Assembly: GCA_019058445.1 (NCBI GenBank)
Contig: JAHPZA010000010.1
Span: forward strand, 636,035-700,034
DNA length: 64,000 bases
Source of the DNA: Promethearchaeota archaeon
GTDB taxonomy: Archaea > Asgardarchaeota > Lokiarchaeia > Sigyniarchaeales > SOKP01
Reading direction: 5' to 3'
Shown one piece after another: positions 15,704 to 49,578 of the stretch. Position 1 is the first letter of the stretch; every line of letters begins with the position of its first letter. The notes under the pieces were generated by a model. It made no database searches. It was not told where the DNA came from and saw only the letters and a program-made list of their open reading frames with translations. Position numbers and translations under genes: made by a program.

Positions 15704-16069
15704 TTTTTTAAAAATTTTAATTGTTGGGAATTATAATATAATGCTACTATATTAAAACAGAAATAACTAATAAAGAAGATTATTATTACCATACTTTAAA
15801 GAAAGCTAATTATAGTTAATTATAATGAATATATATATTAAAATTCAACAATTAGATTATGTTTGCCAATTTTATGATATTTTATTAATTTCATAAATAT
15901 TCTTTTACTAAGCCTGATGAATAATTAGAGATGCATTATGCTATATGCACCAACTAAAACACAATTATTTAAAGGAAAAGAGAAATAAAAAATGATATAG
16001 AATTATCGATATATCCTTAAAATCAAAATAAGAATTTAGATATACTAATATATAATAAAAAAATAAGAA

Positions 16070-16740
16070 CTATGTTCTTTTATAGATAAATCGCTCCCAT
16101 GATTTGGTTGAGGCCATTTCTTCGGGCATTCCTTTGCGTTTTCTTATATCTAAAATTACTTTTTCTTCTAATGAGGGAGGCACTTTCTCAAAACCTTTAA
16201 ATTCATATCCGAAAAAGGCTCTTCCCTGTGTAGAACTTCGAATTTCATCGGCAATTCCAATTATTTCAGCAGCGGGAATCTGACCTTGAACTCTCACGTA
16301 CTCTCCTTCGGGTATAACGTTATTAATTCGTCCACGATGTTTATTAATTATTGCATTCACCCCTCCTTCTGTTCCCTCAGGTGTTTTCACATCTATTTTT
16401 TGAATTGGCTCAAATATATGAGGCTCAGCATTAAGCATCGCTAAGGAGAGCGCTGAATAACTCATGGATGCTGTCTGAGCGAATTGGGTATGGCGAGGGT
16501 CTTCGTGAATTACGAGATCTGTGAAAACTGCCTTAATTCCAAGCGCGGGCTCTTTAGCTAATATACATTCTTCAATCCAATTCCTAAATGAACTGATAAG
16601 GTCATTTCTTATTCTATCAAAGCGCTGTAGTCCTGAGGCTCCATTAACTAAAAGATTTCCTTTATATACGTCTACAATTCGTCTTGCCTCCTTAGTTTCC
16701 CATCCAGCTTCTTCTCTTAGAATTTGTGCTCGCTCTTTTT
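16070..16740 (-). pseudogene. duplicated 3' fragment (~670 bp) of the EF-2 gene
   Basis: Direct repeat of 46012-46682 (offset 29942); about 18 substitutions, none in 16182-16575; 5' part of the gene is missing. Confidence 0.9.
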
Positions 16741-46011: not shown

Positions 46012-48294
46012 TTATGTTCTTTTATAGATGAATCGGTCCCAAGATTTAGTTGAGGCCATTTCTTCGGGCATCCCCTTGCGTTTTCTTATATCTAAAATTA
46101 CTTCTTCTTCTAAAGAGGGAGGAACTTTCTCAAAACCTTTAAATTCATATCCGAAAAAGGCTCTTCCCTGTGTAGAACTTCGAATTTCATCGGCAATTCC
46201 AATTATTTCAGCAGCGGGAATCTGACCTTGAACTCTCACGTACTCTCCTTCGGGTATAACGTTATTAATTCGTCCACGATGTTTATTAATTATTGCATTC
46301 ACCCCTCCTTCTGTTCCCTCAGGTGTTTTCACATCTATTTTTTGAATTGGCTCAAATATATGAGGCTCAGCATTAAGCATCGCTAAGGAGAGCGCTGAAT
46401 AACTCATGGATGCTGTCTGAGCGAATTGGGTATGGCGAGGGTCTTCGTGAATTACGAGATCTGTGAAAACTGCCTTAATTCCAAGCGCGGGCTCTTTAGC
46501 TAATATACATTCTTCAACCCAATTTCTAAATGAACTGATAAGATCATTTTTTATTCTATCAAAGCGCTGTAGTCCTGAGGCTCCATTAACTAAAAGGTTT
46601 CCTTTATATACATCCACAATTCGTCTTGCCTCCTTAGTTTCCCATCCTGCTTCTTCTCTTAGAATTTGTGCTCGCTCTTTTTCGTTCTGTAAATCAGTGA
46701 TTCGTCCCTCATCTAGTAATTCTTCAGTCTTTTCATCTAAAGGTTCTATATACAACAATAAACGATTATGAGTATTTGTGGACTTCGTATGAAATTCTTT
46801 GCTTTTTTTCGTAATTTTCTCTCGATATACAATGATTGGTTCTCCAATTTCAATTTTTACTTGATTGTCGATTCGCTTAGTTAAGATTTCAATCTGTAGG
46901 GGATCAATTCCGCTTAGTATATACTCCATTGATTCTTTATTTAACCGAAATTCAGCAGTTGGATCCGCCTGCAACCATTTTCCGACGACTTCTCCTAACT
47001 TCGCCAGGTCATGAGGATCTTTTGGTTTAATACTTCTCGATACAACAGCTTTACATGCATAATGAATTTTTTCGAATGAAGGTATTGATGATACCTCATC
47101 TTTATTTTTAGGAATATCTTGAGCATTAATAAAGGTTTCACCAGAAGGACAAATAAATCCATAGAGCGCAAAAAGATTTCCAGCAGGAACCTTGGGAATG
47201 TCAAGAATGTCTGTAATTTCCATGACTCCAAGTCGTTTGACTCGATTAGCAGTCCTACTTCCTAGTAAATAGATTGAATCGGTTTGATCAAATGTTCCGG
47301 AAAAGACTCTTCCGATAAGAGTGGCTTGATAATTTCTTTTAGGATCAAGAAACAGCTTGGTGATCATTCCATATAGAGGCCCGTTAGGGTCGCTTTTTGC
47401 CAGAGCTTGCCCTAACTCTGAATCCATATCACCTCCCCAGAGATGTTGAATTCTATACTTCGAAGCTTCAATAGGATTTGGTAAATGATCGACGACCATT
47501 CTTAGCATCGGCTCGTCAAGAGGTAAGTTCTCCCTTAACCACGCAATGTCACCTTCAGTGTATTTCTCAAAGACGGTTATAGGAGTATATCCTTTTTCTT
47601 TTAAGATTTCGTAGGTGAATCCCCACCCATGTTTAGCAGATCCGACAGCAACACTGTTTTTAGCAAAATCAATGCCCCAATCAGACCCATCTGGTCTGAC
47701 TTTTTTGATTAATTCATTTACTTCATTTGTAATCTTATCAATTTTCGCATACGTATCCTTAGGACTAAGTTTAAGCTCGCTTATTAATCGATCTACTTTA
47801 TTAATAAATAACACGGGTTTACAGTATTCCTCGCCAACAGCAAGCCGAATATTTGTTTCTGTTTGTGTCATTATACCCTCTAAAGCGTCAACTAAGATAA
47901 TTGCTCCATCAGAACCTCTTAAGGCTCTTGAAACTTCTCCAGTAAATGAAATATGGCCGGGAGTATCATTAAGCTGAAATATGTAGGGTTCGGGTTCGTC
48001 AGGTTTTCTTGGATCATTAAATGCCAATAAAACTACAGACGTGAATATTGTGATGCCTCTCTCTTGCTCCTCGTCATCTGACTACAGTAGATAAAGTTTA
48101 CCTTTATCTATATCTGTCATTTGGAGCTGACCAGCATCTTCGGGTCTCATTAACCCTGCACGCCTTAATAGATAATCTGTAGCTGTGGTTTTGCCGTGAT
48201 CTATGTGGGCAGTGATACTGAAGATTCTTTTTTTCTCATATGAACCAGAAGTCACCAGTTTGGCGATTTCGTCGGGGTTCTTTACTTTAACCAT
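46012..48294 (-). CDS. fusA: translation elongation factor aEF-2; spliced join of 48112-48294 and 46012-48081 gives 750 aa
   Basis: Exon 1 AHIDHGKTT...QMTD; exon 2 SDDEEQERGITI, DTPGH, NKVD, HEDPRH, RSSTQGRA; two ORF-track entries (48082..48294 and 46012..48027) form one gene. Confidence 0.93.
48082..48111 (-). other. 30-nt bulge-helix-bulge (tRNA-type) intron in EF-2 mRNA
   Basis: mRNA UG ACAG AU^A UAGAUAAAG GUAAA CUUUAUCUA CUGU AG^U CA: 4-bp helix, two 3-nt bulges, perfect 9-bp stem; excision removes the TAG and restores TD-SDDEEQERGITI. Confidence 0.88.
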
Positions 48295-48432
48295 TTATAT
48301 TCACTTAATATTAATTCTCATGTAATTATTAAAGAAAAAAATATGAGAAACCATAAAAATTTTATGGATTTACCCTATAAATCGCTAAGTTTATCGGTTT
48401 TTAGATGTTTTTTTTAGTTGTACTCTTACAGA

Positions 48433-49578
48433 TTATTTTGTGATATCCATCCAATTGAGCATGAAATCAAGTACAAGCTTATAATTGCCTATTTGGCAGT
48501 GATTAGCCGCATGTTCCTTTTCTGTAAACATTCTGCAGGTAAGAGATTTTACATTCTTAAGTGCTTCTATTTGATTATAAAACATTTCGATAGGGATAAA
48601 ATGATCATTTGTGCCTGCTAATAGTAATACATCGCAGGTGATTTTATCAGAGATAGTAGCTGTGGAAAACAATCTCGCTTTTTGTAAAAATTCAAAAGGA
48701 TTGTTTACTCCAAAAACATACATTCCATGATTTAAGCCCCAGTTGACCAGTAAATCATTTTTCATCATTCTCTGAGCGACTTTATTCAGCATGTCTATCT
48801 GGTTAGTGTCTAAGAATGATTCGATCATTTTTCGTACCTTGGGTCCACCAGCATACAAAAGCACTTCAAAAAAATCATAAATAATATCAAAAGCAATTAC
48901 TTTTGAGATTCTTGGCTCAAAGGCAGCTGCACGCAATCCCAAGTATCCCCCCAACGATATTCCTATTAATGCTACATTATCAAGATTAAAATAGTCTAAA
49001 ACGGCTTTTACTGGTTTTTCCCATTCATGAATCATTGGAAATTTGTTTTTCTTTAGAGCAGCTCCTTGTCCGGGGCCTTCAAATAATATAACTTCATAAC
49101 CGTTATCTCTAAAATATGAACCGAATAAATAAAACTCCTCTAAAAATGAATCATATCCCCCATGAATAACAACTATTCCTTTGCGTTCATCATTTGTAAG
49201 GTGTATTCCAGGTAGGAAAGAATTTTCATAGGGAATTTCTACTTTTTCATCAACAGCATTTTTATAAATGGAATAAAACAAATCAATAAATTTGTCATAT
49301 AGAATTTCTTTATCTAGATCATTAGGTGCAACAAAGAATTCTGCTGCTCTATAATACATAGCAGCATTTAAAGTCCTATTTTCACCAAGGGCTTTTTCTG
49401 CAAGTGCCACCAATTCTCTTTTCCAATCGTTAAAGTCTTTTATTTTAGGTGCTAATTCTTTTATTTCTTCATAACTACCCCCATTTGTAATTAATCTATT
49501 AAGTTGAAAATTTATATTTGCTTGTTCATGGAGGTCATGATATCCTATTGGAAATTTGTATTCTGACTTAAGACTCAT
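48433..49578 (-). CDS. alpha/beta hydrolase (FrsA/DHPON hydrolase-like)
   Basis: YYRAAEFF, HGGYDS, EGPGQG, GISLGG, D..HCQ. Confidence 0.85.
   Translation of the reverse strand: MSLKSEYKFPIGYHDLHEQANINFQLNRLITNGGSYEEIKELAPKIKDFNDWKRELVALAEKALGENRTLNAAMYYRAAEFFVAPNDLDKEILYDKFIDLFYSIYKNAVDEKVEIPYENSFLPGIHLTNDERKGIVVIHGGYDSFLEEFYLFGSYFRDNGYEVILFEGPGQGAALKKNKFPMIHEWEKPVKAVLDYFNLDNVALIGISLGGYLGLRAAAFEPRISKVIAFDIIYDFFEVLLYAGGPKVRKMIESFLDTNQIDMLNKVAQRMMKNDLLVNWGLNHGMYVFGVNNPFEFLQKARLFSTATISDKITCDVLLLAGTNDHFIPIEMFYNQIEALKNVKSLTCRMFTEKEHAANHCQIGNYKLVLDFMLNWMDITK

What the first reader, a model, noticed from the sequence alone, without database searches (positions are those of the whole stretch)
48066..48127. 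BHB (tRNA-type) intron in the mRNA of elongation factor EF-2
Seen: on the minus strand EF-2 reads ...CAA ATG ACA GAT [ATAGATAAAGGTAAACTTTATCTACTGTAG] TCA GAT GAC GAG GAG CAA GAG AGA GGC ATC ACA. The bracketed 30 nt (48082-48111) end in an in-frame TAG and split the conserved switch I motif. The RNA folds as follows: outer pairs UG/CA (plus GCUCC/GGAGC further out), 4-bp helix ACAG/CUGU, 3-nt bulges AUA and AGU on opposite strands, and a perfect 9-bp stem UAGAUAAAG/CUUUAUCUA with loop GUAAA. Established: this is the canonical BHB substrate of the archaeal splicing endonuclease EndA, which cuts after the second nucleotide of each bulge; RtcB then ligates. Those cuts (AU^A, AG^U) remove exactly the 30 nt and give QMTD-SDDEEQERGITI in a 750-aa EF-2. 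Archaeal mRNA BHB introns are known mainly from crenarchaeal cbf5; I am not aware of one described in EF-2 or in an Asgard protein gene. Inference: production of this EF-2 depends on tRNA-type splicing. Automated annotation would miscall the gene as split or pseudogenised.
Basis: partly seen in the sequence, partly recalled or inferred. Interest (0 to 1): 0.96.

Follow-up and report, generated by a model that had tools for sequence, protein, structure and literature searches.

The report
tRNA-type mini-intron in Asgard EF-2 gene
The gene for the essential translation factor EF-2 of this Asgard (Loki-type) archaeon is interrupted by a 30-base hairpin shaped like the introns that archaea cut out of tRNAs, so its mRNA very probably has to be cut and re-joined before it can be translated; in archaeal coding regions, published work shows this only for cbf5.

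Summary
Window 48082-48111 (minus strand) holds a 30-nt insert ending in an in-frame TAG, inside an otherwise intact 750-codon EF-2 gene. With its flanks it forms a 4-bp helix flanked by two 3-nt bulges and a perfect 9-bp/5-nt hairpin.

Cutting after the second base of each bulge gives QMTD|SDDEEQERGITI. That is exactly the sequence of about 90 uninterrupted orthologues. The gene is under strong purifying selection (dN/dS 0.02-0.07).

In other Promethearchaeota the same gene carries inserts of the same 30-nt design (one is 29 nt) at four other sites. Three lie in the P-loop and one lies 6 nt downstream of this site. The helices covary: the central helix is 100% paired and all four of its pairs show compensatory changes. 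Very close relatives (96-97% aa identity) carry the insert at different sites, or lack it.

Three further genes of this genome (Sir2, ChlI/D-type chelatase, prismane/CODH) are restored in the same way. RtcB and an EndA beta-like subunit are present. The catalytic EndA alpha subunit is missing from this 93%-complete assembly but present in all 8 same-genus genomes searched. There is no RNA evidence.

By its domain-IV loop the gene is the canonical aEF-2, not the aEF-2p paralogue. This scan has noted similar introns in other Asgard genomes. I found no publication of them.

The parts
48112..48294 (-). Exon 1 of aEF-2 (61 codons, M1..D61; contains the P-loop AHIDHGKTT)
   Evidence: Pfam GTP_EFTU and TIGR00490 positions 8-61
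48082..48111 (-). 30-nt BHB-type intron: 1 bulge nt, a 23-nt hairpin (9-bp stem, loop GUAAA), the 4-nt central-helix strand CUGU, and 2 bulge nt. It ends in an in-frame TAG.
   Evidence: Unique in the genome, with no other copy at up to 7 mismatches. Absent from about 90 orthologues.
46012..48081 (-). Exon 2 of aEF-2 (689 codons plus stop; begins SDDEEQERGITI; keeps the domain-IV loop HEDPRHTQ)
   Evidence: TIGR00490 positions 60-718 at 568 bits; loop conservation
48079..48119 (-). Whole BHB motif in the pre-mRNA. Outer helix UG (48119-48118) pairs with CA (48080-48079). Central helix ACAG (48117-48114) pairs with CUGU (48087-48084). 5' bulge AUA is at 48113-48111 and 3' bulge AGU at 48083-48081. 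Inner stem 48110-48102 pairs with 48096-48088; loop at 48101-48097. Predicted cuts lie between 48112|48111 and between 48082|48081.

Best explanation
The 30 nt at window 48082-48111 (minus strand) are a bulge-helix-bulge (tRNA-type) micro-intron in the pre-mRNA of the canonical elongation factor aEF-2 of a Promethearchaeota (Loki-type Asgard) archaeon.

Inferred mechanism: the exon bases ACAG pair with the intron bases CUGU to form the 4-bp central helix. The intron hairpin supplies the inner helix. The two 3-nt bulges (AUA, AGU) are each cut after their second base by the heterotetrameric (alpha-beta)2 splicing endonuclease EndA. RtcB then joins the exons, giving an mRNA for a 750-aa protein with an intact switch-I region (QMTD-SDDEEQERGITI). 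Unspliced mRNA can only give a 70-aa stub.

Shown here: the structure, the exact restoration of the orthologue sequence, purifying selection, recurrence and covariation, and the presence of RtcB and EndA genes in the lineage.

Inferred: the cleavage and ligation themselves.
For: 1. Excision by the BHB rule gives the junction MTD|SDD. About 90 uninterrupted orthologues have exactly this sequence with no gap. Shifting the 30-nt window by one base either way changes a conserved residue (read directly from the sequence).

2. The aEF-2 profile is contiguous across the junction.

3. The gene has no other lesion. dN/dS is 0.035-0.045 against the closest intron-free orthologues. It is 0.03-0.07 for the other pairs with a usable dS that involve an intron carrier, including two pairs in which both genes carry an intron.

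4. Seventeen orthologue loci (15 distinct genes; two MAGs were sampled twice) from independent assemblies carry inserts of one design. The design is a 4-bp helix, a 3-nt bulge, a 23-nt hairpin and a 3-nt bulge, 30 nt in all (one is 29 nt). They sit at five sites: after nt 90, 96, 103 (phase 1), 183 and 189. They contain TAA, TAG or TGA, and each is removed exactly by the same cut rule.

5. Covariation. The central helix is 100% paired and all 4 of its pairs show compensatory changes. The inner stem is 94% paired and 7 of its 9 pairs change on both sides. None of 500 shuffles reaches the observed score, and sliding the partner columns drops pairing to 32-43%.

6. In site-189 introns the stems stay 72-100% identical while fourfold-degenerate sites of the host genes are saturated; the loops vary.

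7. Three more genes of this genome are restored by excision of 30-32-nt BHB inserts. Pfam profile positions across the junctions are Sir2 103|108 and prismane/CODH 457|458. For the ChlI/D-type chelatase the Mg_chelatase match runs to the last residues of the upstream half and the junction restores MNPE|EGELRPQ.

8. RtcB is present at 574 bits. An EndA beta-like subunit is present. All 8 same-genus genomes searched have the high-scoring alpha-type EndA copy; the two I translated carry the Tyr/His/Lys triad. Seven of the 8 also have the beta-like copy. Asgard EndA is reported to be the broad-specificity (alpha-beta)2 type with the L1 loop (PMC5829648).

9. tRNA genes of this genome are heavily interrupted: ARAGORN finds only 23, and 19 of them have introns. 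This fits reports for Asgard archaea (PMC11291895; bioRxiv 10.64898/2026.10.13.758758).
Against: - No RNA-level evidence (spliced junction reads, excised circles, peptides) was available.
- The catalytic EndA alpha gene and its 3-kb neighbourhood are absent from this assembly (10 contigs, 92.6% complete). The enzyme is therefore inferred from congeners.
- The outer exon helix is only 2 bp and the minimum-free-energy fold does not form it. Across examples it is paired in 58% of cells. The substrate is thus a relaxed motif, and cleavage of such a motif by Asgard EndA has never been tested biochemically.
Confidence: 0.88

Rival explanations
1. The gene is a pseudogene, or an insertion has recently inactivated it, and the hairpin is just an inserted palindromic element that is not removed.
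For: The insert puts an in-frame TAG into an essential motif. A second EF-2 family gene exists on contig C9. A 686-bp partial duplicate of the 3' end lies in the same window.
Against: There is no other stop or frameshift in 750 codons. dN/dS is 0.035-0.045 against the nearest intron-free orthologues, and about 0.04 between intron carriers that differ at dS 0.4-1.2. The C9 copy lacks the HxDxxH domain-IV loop, so it is the aEF-2p paralogue, which is not expected to act as a translocase. That leaves this gene as the only canonical aEF-2. Inserts always obey the BHB cut rule at five sites and in three other genes. The insert is single-copy in the genome.
Confidence: 0.03
2. The insert is dealt with at translation rather than by RNA splicing. 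Either TAG is read through (as pyrrolysine or by suppression), giving a 10-aa insertion, or the ribosome hops over it as in T4 gene 60.
For: The insert is 30 nt, so it preserves the frame, and its only stop is the terminal TAG. GAT codons lie before and after it. ARAGORN calls a doubtful intron-containing tRNA(CUA) on contig C9.
Against: No PylS is present: the best hit scores 38.6 bits against a cut-off of 178. Orthologous inserts contain TAA and TGA, often several stops. One insert is 29 nt, and inserts in other genes are 32 nt or sit in phase 1 or 2, so read-through cannot work in general. A GAT-to-GAT hop would delete two conserved residues here. At the P-loop sites any hop between matching codons would delete part of AHIDHGKTT. 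Neither idea explains the conserved 4-bp helix and 3-nt bulges with compensatory changes.
Confidence: 0.03
3. The 30 nt are an assembly or sequencing artefact, for example a chimeric join or strain mixing.
For: The genome is a metagenome-derived assembly. Close relatives differ in insert position.
Against: Inserts of the same design appear in at least 15 independent assemblies from different studies and pipelines (NCBI MAGs, ENA and JGI contigs). In the public protein collection, about 33 of the 120 nearest clusters have the truncated lengths (702 or 671-674 aa) that gene callers produce for carriers. No artefact would reproduce a BHB with compensatory changes.
Confidence: 0.01
4. The insert is removed from the RNA, but not by EndA/RtcB. 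An unknown nuclease and ligase pair, or a guide-RNA system, recognises the hairpin.
For: The catalytic EndA alpha is not in this assembly. The strikingly uniform 30-nt, 9-bp, 5-nt-loop design is not required by EndA as known. Stem sequences are more conserved than pairing alone would require.
Against: The conserved features are exactly those that define the EndA substrate: two 3-nt bulges 4 bp apart, with cuts after the second bulge base. All 8 congeners have the alpha-type EndA copy and 7 also have the beta-like one. 30 nt is far too short for a self-splicing intron.
Confidence: 0.04

Closest known systems
BHB intron in the cbf5 (aCBF5 pseudouridine synthase) pre-mRNA of Crenarchaeota (Desulfurococcales and Sulfolobales; Watanabe 2002, Yoshinari 2006, Yokobori 2009 = PMC2738675)
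   Same: It is a short intron inside an archaeal protein-coding region, recognised as a BHB-like structure by the tRNA splicing endonuclease. It occurs in lineages with a hetero-oligomeric EndA and shows lineage-specific presence and absence.
   Different: The phylum differs (Asgard/Promethearchaeota) and so does the gene (the essential translocase aEF-2). cbf5 has one ancestral position with a few losses. Here there are five positions within 100 nt of one gene. Relatives that are 96-97% identical in protein differ in position, and the tree needs at least 10 gains or losses. The design is a stereotyped 30 nt. Several other genes of the same genome are also affected. cbf5 splicing is shown experimentally; this case is not.
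[quoted passage not shown]
   Same: The motif geometry and cut positions are the same. The motif is equally relaxed, with a weak outer helix. It depends on the same (alpha-beta)2 EndA with the L1 loop (PMC5829648) and on RtcB. The history is likewise one of many apparently independent gains.
   Different: The host RNA is an mRNA. The exon half of the motif must therefore be built from coding sequence, and the excision must preserve the reading frame and the protein sequence.
EndA-dependent BHB processing of rRNA precursors, and a BHB in an mRNA 5' UTR of Haloferax (PMC7714728; I read only its abstract, and the UTR substrate is from my recollection)
   Same: The same enzyme acts on a non-tRNA substrate.
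   Different: Those sites are not inside coding regions and do not restore an open reading frame.

Membership tests
Archaeal BHB intron (EndA substrate) | [quoted passage not shown] | tested here: met
   The helix is ACAG/CUGU with bulges AUA and AGU. Across 12 examples this helix is 100% paired and all 4 pairs show compensatory changes.
Archaeal BHB intron (EndA substrate) | Flanking helices: inner h' (intron) and outer h (exon), as in the strict hBHBh' form | tested here: inconclusive
   The inner h' is a perfect 9-bp stem, 94% paired across examples. The outer h is only UG/CA (2 bp), is absent from the minimum-free-energy fold and is 58% paired across examples. This fits the relaxed HBh' class, not the strict form.
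Archaeal BHB intron (EndA substrate) | Cleavage after the second base of each bulge yields a functional joined RNA | tested here: met
   The rule gives MTD|SDD, identical to about 90 intron-free orthologues. The same rule restores the gene at four other sites and in Sir2, ChlI/D and prismane/CODH.
Archaeal BHB intron (EndA substrate) | The genome encodes the splicing endonuclease and the RtcB ligase | tested here: inconclusive
   RtcB scores 574 bits. The only EndA gene found (202 aa) has Phe and Asp at the positions of the catalytic Tyr and His, so it is beta-like. The catalytic alpha subunit is absent from this assembly, but the alpha-type copy is present in 8 of 8 same-genus genomes.
Archaeal BHB intron (EndA substrate) | Removal from the RNA in vivo or in vitro | not testable with these tools
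   No transcriptome, proteome or enzyme assay was available. No exact spliced protein from an RNA-derived assembly turned up among the nearest clusters.
Canonical archaeal EF-2 (as opposed to the aEF-2p paralogue of Narrowe et al. 2018, PMC6143161) | Conserved domain-IV diphthamide loop HxDxxH(R)G including the target His; in Lokiarchaeota, Ser or Gln at the Gly position | tested here: met
   This gene has HEDPRHTQ, which is conserved as HEDPRHTQ[YF] in 65 of about 105 orthologues; most of the rest keep HxDxxH. The C9 copy has no such loop. Criteria were taken from PMC6143161.
Canonical archaeal EF-2 (NCBIfam TIGR00490 equivalog) | Score above the curated cut-off of 738 bits | tested here: not met
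   The score is 602 bits read through and 568 bits for exon 2 alone. The C9 paralogue scores 653 bits. Both Asgard copies fall below the cut-off, in line with the accelerated evolution reported for dph-lacking lineages.
Programmed translational bypass (T4 gene 60 type) | Matched take-off and landing codons flanking the gap, such that the product is the conserved protein | tested here: not met
   The GAT...GAT pairing here would delete two conserved residues. P-loop sites, phase-1 and phase-2 sites, and the 29- and 32-nt inserts have no workable codon pair.
Pyrrolysine or stop-codon recoding | PylS and tRNA(Pyl) present; a single stop codon type reassigned | tested here: not met
   No PylS scores above the cut-off. 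Orthologous inserts carry TAA, TAG and TGA.

The most novel reading that the evidence does not exclude
The 30-nt hairpins may be a class of mobile BHB micro-introns that still move within and between Promethearchaeota lineages. They might do so by reverse splicing or retro-insertion, guided by the 4-bp pairing between the intron 3' segment (CUGN) and an exon NCAG-type target. They would preferentially settle in highly conserved motif-coding sequence (P-loop, switch I, Sir2 ELHG, chelatase NPEEGELRPQ), much as inteins and homing introns do.

Hints from this work:
- The own intron sits at ACAGAU|, while its 97%-identical relative has a recognisably related intron 6 nt downstream at UCAGAC|. The pairing base has switched accordingly (CUGU to CUGA).
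- A 96%-identical relative has the P-loop site instead.
- The gene tree needs at least 10 gains or losses for 12 carriers.
- Two distant hosts (fourfold-site identity 0.36) share a nearly identical intron, including its otherwise variable loop.

If true, Asgard archaea would be actively gaining protein-gene introns through the tRNA-splicing machinery.
Probability: 0.3. Interest if true: 0.92.

Novelty: new variant of a known kind. Interest (0 to 1): 0.8.

Why it matters
Splicing of archaeal coding mRNA by the tRNA-splicing machinery is published for a single gene, cbf5, and only in Crenarchaeota. Here the only canonical translocase gene of an Asgard archaeon depends on it. Several metabolic and regulatory genes of the same genome do too, and the intron positions turn over between near-identical relatives.

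This matters in three ways.

1. Standard annotation systematically miscalls such genes as truncated or split. Public records of this very gene appear as 702-aa or 671-674-aa "GTP-binding protein" or "EF-2" entries.

2. Expression of an essential gene would be coupled to EndA/RtcB activity, which opens a possible regulatory layer.

3. The closest prokaryotic relatives of eukaryotes would tolerate, and may be actively acquiring, introns in protein genes by a protein-only splicing pathway. That makes the long-standing question of how introns colonise coding sequence directly testable in these lineages.

Tried and rejected
- Window-wide and genome-wide searches for further copies of the 30-mer, allowing up to 7 mismatches, found only the intron itself. 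It is not a multicopy repeat or MITE.
- Rfam at a permissive threshold over 47000-49000 gave only two chance-level hits, neither at the intron.
- The strict geometric scan (30 nt, 4/4 central helix, at least 8/9 stem pairs) gave 917 hits, close to my rough expectation of about 775 from base composition. Geometry alone is therefore not diagnostic. Of the 8 hits that also restore an open frame of 50 or more codons on each side, 3 are real by homology. At least two are false: C4:226575 is a gene junction in front of a HAD hydrolase start, and C9:380247 lies in non-coding-looking frames. The other three were not examined.
- Relaxed scans added one verified case (prismane/CODH, 32 nt) and many unconvincing ones. 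They missed introns that first-stage notes report elsewhere in this genome, so I give no genome-wide count.
- MAFFT misaligned two of the 14 intron sequences. I used an ungapped 12-sequence alignment and my own column counts instead.
- The search for the catalytic EndA alpha in the own genome failed. This used tblastn with the congeneric protein and tblastx with its 3-kb neighbourhood.
- I looked for an exact full-length (spliced) copy of this protein in the public collection, which might have come from an RNA-derived assembly. None was among the nearest clusters.
- I first took the gene for the aEF-2p paralogue because of its sub-threshold TIGR00490 score. The domain-IV loop comparison reversed that.
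Full report
**Observation**

On the minus strand the window reads ...CAG CTC CAA ATG ACA GAT, then 30 nt (48111..48082) ending in TAG, then TCA GAT GAC GAG GAG CAA GAG AGA GGC ATC ACA. The upstream ORF (48294..48082) gives 70 aa that end in the P-loop-containing N-terminus of a translational GTPase followed by IDKGKLYLL*. The frame continues open from 48081 to 46012.

Pfam finds GTP_EFTU, EFG_III, EFG_IV and EFG_C. The NCBIfam aEF-2 model TIGR00490 aligns the first piece to profile positions 8-61 and the second from position 60 onward. The 30 nt are therefore extra relative to the family.

**Structure**

The RNA fold of 48056-48137 gives ACAG/CUGU, the AUA bulge and a perfect 9-bp stem with loop GUAAA (-21.7 kcal/mol, z = -2.8). 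Read 5' to 3' the arrangement is:
- outer helix UG
- central helix ACAG
- bulge AUA
- 23-nt hairpin
- CUGU
- bulge AGU
- CA

This is the order found in archaeal pre-tRNA BHB motifs, where the bulge lies 3' of each central-helix strand (established knowledge). Cuts after the second bulge base remove exactly 48111..48082.

The outer helix is only 2 bp and is not in the minimum-free-energy structure. The motif is therefore of the relaxed HBh' kind.

**Organism and gene identity**

The nearest loci in the species-representative collection are MAGs named Promethearchaeota or Promethearchaeia, with some labelled as other Asgard phyla. The genome has 4.6 Mb in 10 contigs, 31% G+C, and is 92.6% complete.

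It has two EF-2 family genes. The interrupted one keeps the domain-IV loop HEDPRHTQ. That loop is conserved as HEDPRHTQ[YF] in 65 of about 105 orthologues, and most of the rest keep HxDxxH. The C9 copy has nothing resembling HxDxxHRG.

Narrowe et al. 2018 (PMC6143161) define the canonical aEF-2 of dph-lacking Asgard archaea by retention of this loop, including the target His, with Ser or Gln at the Gly position in Lokiarchaeota. They define aEF-2p by its loss. On that criterion the interrupted gene is the canonical translocase, and it is the only one in the genome. Both copies score below the TIGR00490 cut-off.

**Comparison with orthologues**

I collected about 108 orthologous loci. In about 90 of them, exon 1 and exon 2 equivalents abut with no gap and read ...QMTDSD(D/E)EEQ.RGITI. 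The BHB rule thus predicts the true junction. Moving the 30-nt window by one base changes a conserved residue.

Fifteen of these loci, plus two close relatives fetched through the protein collection, carry stop-containing inserts. Two MAGs were sampled twice, so these are 15 distinct genes. All but one insert are 30 nt; the other is 29 nt. They occupy five sites:
- after nt 90 (AH|IDHGKTT; 2 loci)
- after nt 96 (HID|HGK; 2 loci)
- after nt 103, in codon phase 1 (HG|KTT; 1 locus)
- after nt 183 (MTD|SDD; this genome and one other)
- after nt 189 (SD|DEE; 9 loci representing 8 genes)

Every one fits the same plan: a 4-bp central helix, a 3-nt bulge, a 9-bp stem with a 5-nt loop, and a 3-nt bulge. 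Every one is removed exactly by the same cut rule.

On an ungapped alignment of 12 examples (11 EF-2 introns and the Sir2 intron of this genome), the results are as follows (my own count on 14 sequences agrees):
- The central helix is paired in 100% of cells, and all four pairs show changes on both sides.
- The inner stem is paired in 94% of cells, and 7 of 9 pairs show double changes.
- The outer helix is paired in 58% of cells.
- None of 500 shuffles reaches the observed covariation.
- Sliding the partners by 1-3 columns drops pairing to 32-43%.
- The first base of each bulge is A in 13 and 14 of 14 sequences.

**The gene is alive**

dN/dS is 0.035-0.045 against the nearest intron-free orthologues. 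It is 0.03-0.07 for the other pairs with a usable dS that involve an intron carrier, including two pairs in which both genes carry an intron. No carrier has any other stop or frameshift.

In site-189 introns, stem bases remain 72-100% identical although fourfold-degenerate sites of the hosts are saturated (identity 0.28-0.49). The loop varies. The hairpin is therefore under constraint.

**Turnover**

On the protein tree the 12 carriers need at least 10 gains or losses.
- The closest relative (97% aa identity, dS 0.38) has a related 29-nt intron at site 189, not 183.
- The next relative (96% aa identity, dS 0.57) has one at site 96 and none at 183 or 189.
- A 94%-identical orthologue has none.

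Sites 183 and 189 follow the tandem hexamers ACAGAT and TCAGAT. The intron base that pairs with the first hexamer base switches accordingly (CUGU versus CUGA).

In the public protein collection, 23 of the 120 nearest clusters are 702 aa and 10 are 671-674 aa. These are the lengths that gene callers give for P-loop-site and switch-I-site carriers. I verified this for four of them, including the annotated "elongation factor EF-2" of Loki_b32. This pattern suggests mobility but does not prove it. I place that reading under the novel case.

**Other genes**

A geometric scan of the genome is uninformative on its own (917 hits, roughly as many as chance predicts). Hits that also restore long open frames include three real cases:
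- a Sir2 gene (30 nt, phase 1; restores AELHG|N; Pfam SIR2 positions 103|108)
- a ChlI/D-type chelatase (30 nt, phase 2; restores MNPE|EGELRPQ)
- a prismane/CODH gene (32 nt; Pfam positions 457|458)

First-stage notes of this scan list further candidates in this genome (acs, fadD, thioredoxin and others). Follow-ups report the same phenomenon in other Asgard genomes, including a 31-nt switch-I intron in an EF-2 family gene. I did not test those.

**Machinery**

RtcB is present. The single EndA gene found (202 aa) has Phe and Asp where the catalytic Tyr and His should be, so it is a structural beta-type subunit. All eight same-genus genomes searched have the high-scoring alpha-type copy, and the two I translated carry Tyr/His/Lys. 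Seven of the eight also have the beta-like copy. In this assembly neither the alpha gene nor its neighbourhood is found, most simply because of an assembly gap.

Asgard EndA is described as (alpha-beta)2 with the L1 loop, which confers broad (relaxed-BHB) specificity (PMC5829648). ARAGORN recognises only 23 tRNA genes here, 19 of them with introns. This agrees with reports of heavily interrupted Asgard tRNA genes.

**Rivals**

- Pseudogene: excluded by selection and by the uniqueness of this canonical aEF-2.
- Read-through or pyrrolysine: there is no PylS, and other carriers use TAA or TGA, or have 29- and 32-nt inserts.
- Ribosomal hopping: no workable take-off and landing pairs at most sites.
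- Artefact: excluded by at least 15 independent assemblies.
- Non-EndA removal: cannot be excluded, but it is unnecessary.

**Literature**

Searches of the held library found only the cbf5 intron of Crenarchaeota as an archaeal coding-region BHB intron (PMC2738675). A 2025 paper on archaeal splicing endonucleases still cites only that work for protein-coding introns. Asgard papers describe tRNA introns only. I found no report of BHB introns in Asgard protein genes. Subscription-only literature was not searchable.

**Verdict**

It is a new variant of a known kind: EndA-type mRNA splicing, here in an Asgard essential gene, as a stereotyped 30-nt micro-intron with polymorphic positions. Splicing itself remains to be shown.

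Noticed in passing
window 16057-16740 (-): A 686-bp partial duplicate (97% nt identity) of the 3' third of this same EF-2 gene, encoding its last ~222 residues (KKERAQILREEAGW... to the stop). It has no GTPase domain and the full-length start is absent. It could be a gene fragment or pseudogene, or a strain-variant assembly remnant.
   Followed up: partly
G000:C9:775863-775892 (-), locus L122:564-593: A 30-nt BHB insert in phase 1 with two in-frame stops, in a Sir2-family gene. Excision restores ...AELHG|NMYYMKC, and the Pfam SIR2 profile runs on across the junction (103|108).
   Followed up: yes
G000:C9:269043-269072 (-), locus L121:1844-1873: A 30-nt BHB insert in phase 2 with an in-frame TAG, in a ChlI/ChlD-type AAA+/VWA chelatase gene. 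Excision restores VGSMNPE|EGELRPQ. A first-stage note (e1-5498768) reports the same site independently.
   Followed up: yes
G000:C6:396802-396833 (-), locus L136:303-334: A 32-nt BHB insert that shifts the frame, in a prismane/CO-dehydrogenase family gene. The Pfam PF03063 profile is exactly contiguous across the junction (457|458).
   Followed up: yes
G000 whole genome; L008:1219-1827: Only a beta-like (non-catalytic) EndA subunit is in this assembly. The catalytic alpha subunit and its 3-kb neighbourhood, present in all 8 same-genus genomes searched, are missing.
   Followed up: partly
G000 whole genome: ARAGORN recognises only 23 tRNA genes, and 19 of them have introns. This suggests that most tRNA genes are too interrupted to be detected. 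It also makes doubtful calls of tRNA-Pyl (C9:655982-656074), tRNA-Stop and tRNA-SeC; no PylS gene is present.
   Followed up: partly
L137:122-124: In the closest relative (97% aa identity) the position of the ATG start codon reads ATA, although the gene is otherwise intact (dN/dS 0.037). This could be an alternative start or a sequencing error.
   Followed up: no
L077 (Loki_b32), about 200 nt downstream of the EF-2 stop: A second short match to the last ~43 residues of EF-2 lies behind the gene. This is another partial 3'-end duplicate, like the one in the window.
   Followed up: no
L095/L015 compared with L079 (site-189 introns): Two hosts whose fourfold-degenerate sites are saturated (identity 0.36) share an almost identical intron (27 of 29 compared positions), including the loop TTTTC, which varies in other pairs. 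This could reflect horizontal spread of the intron or constraint on the loop.
   Followed up: partly
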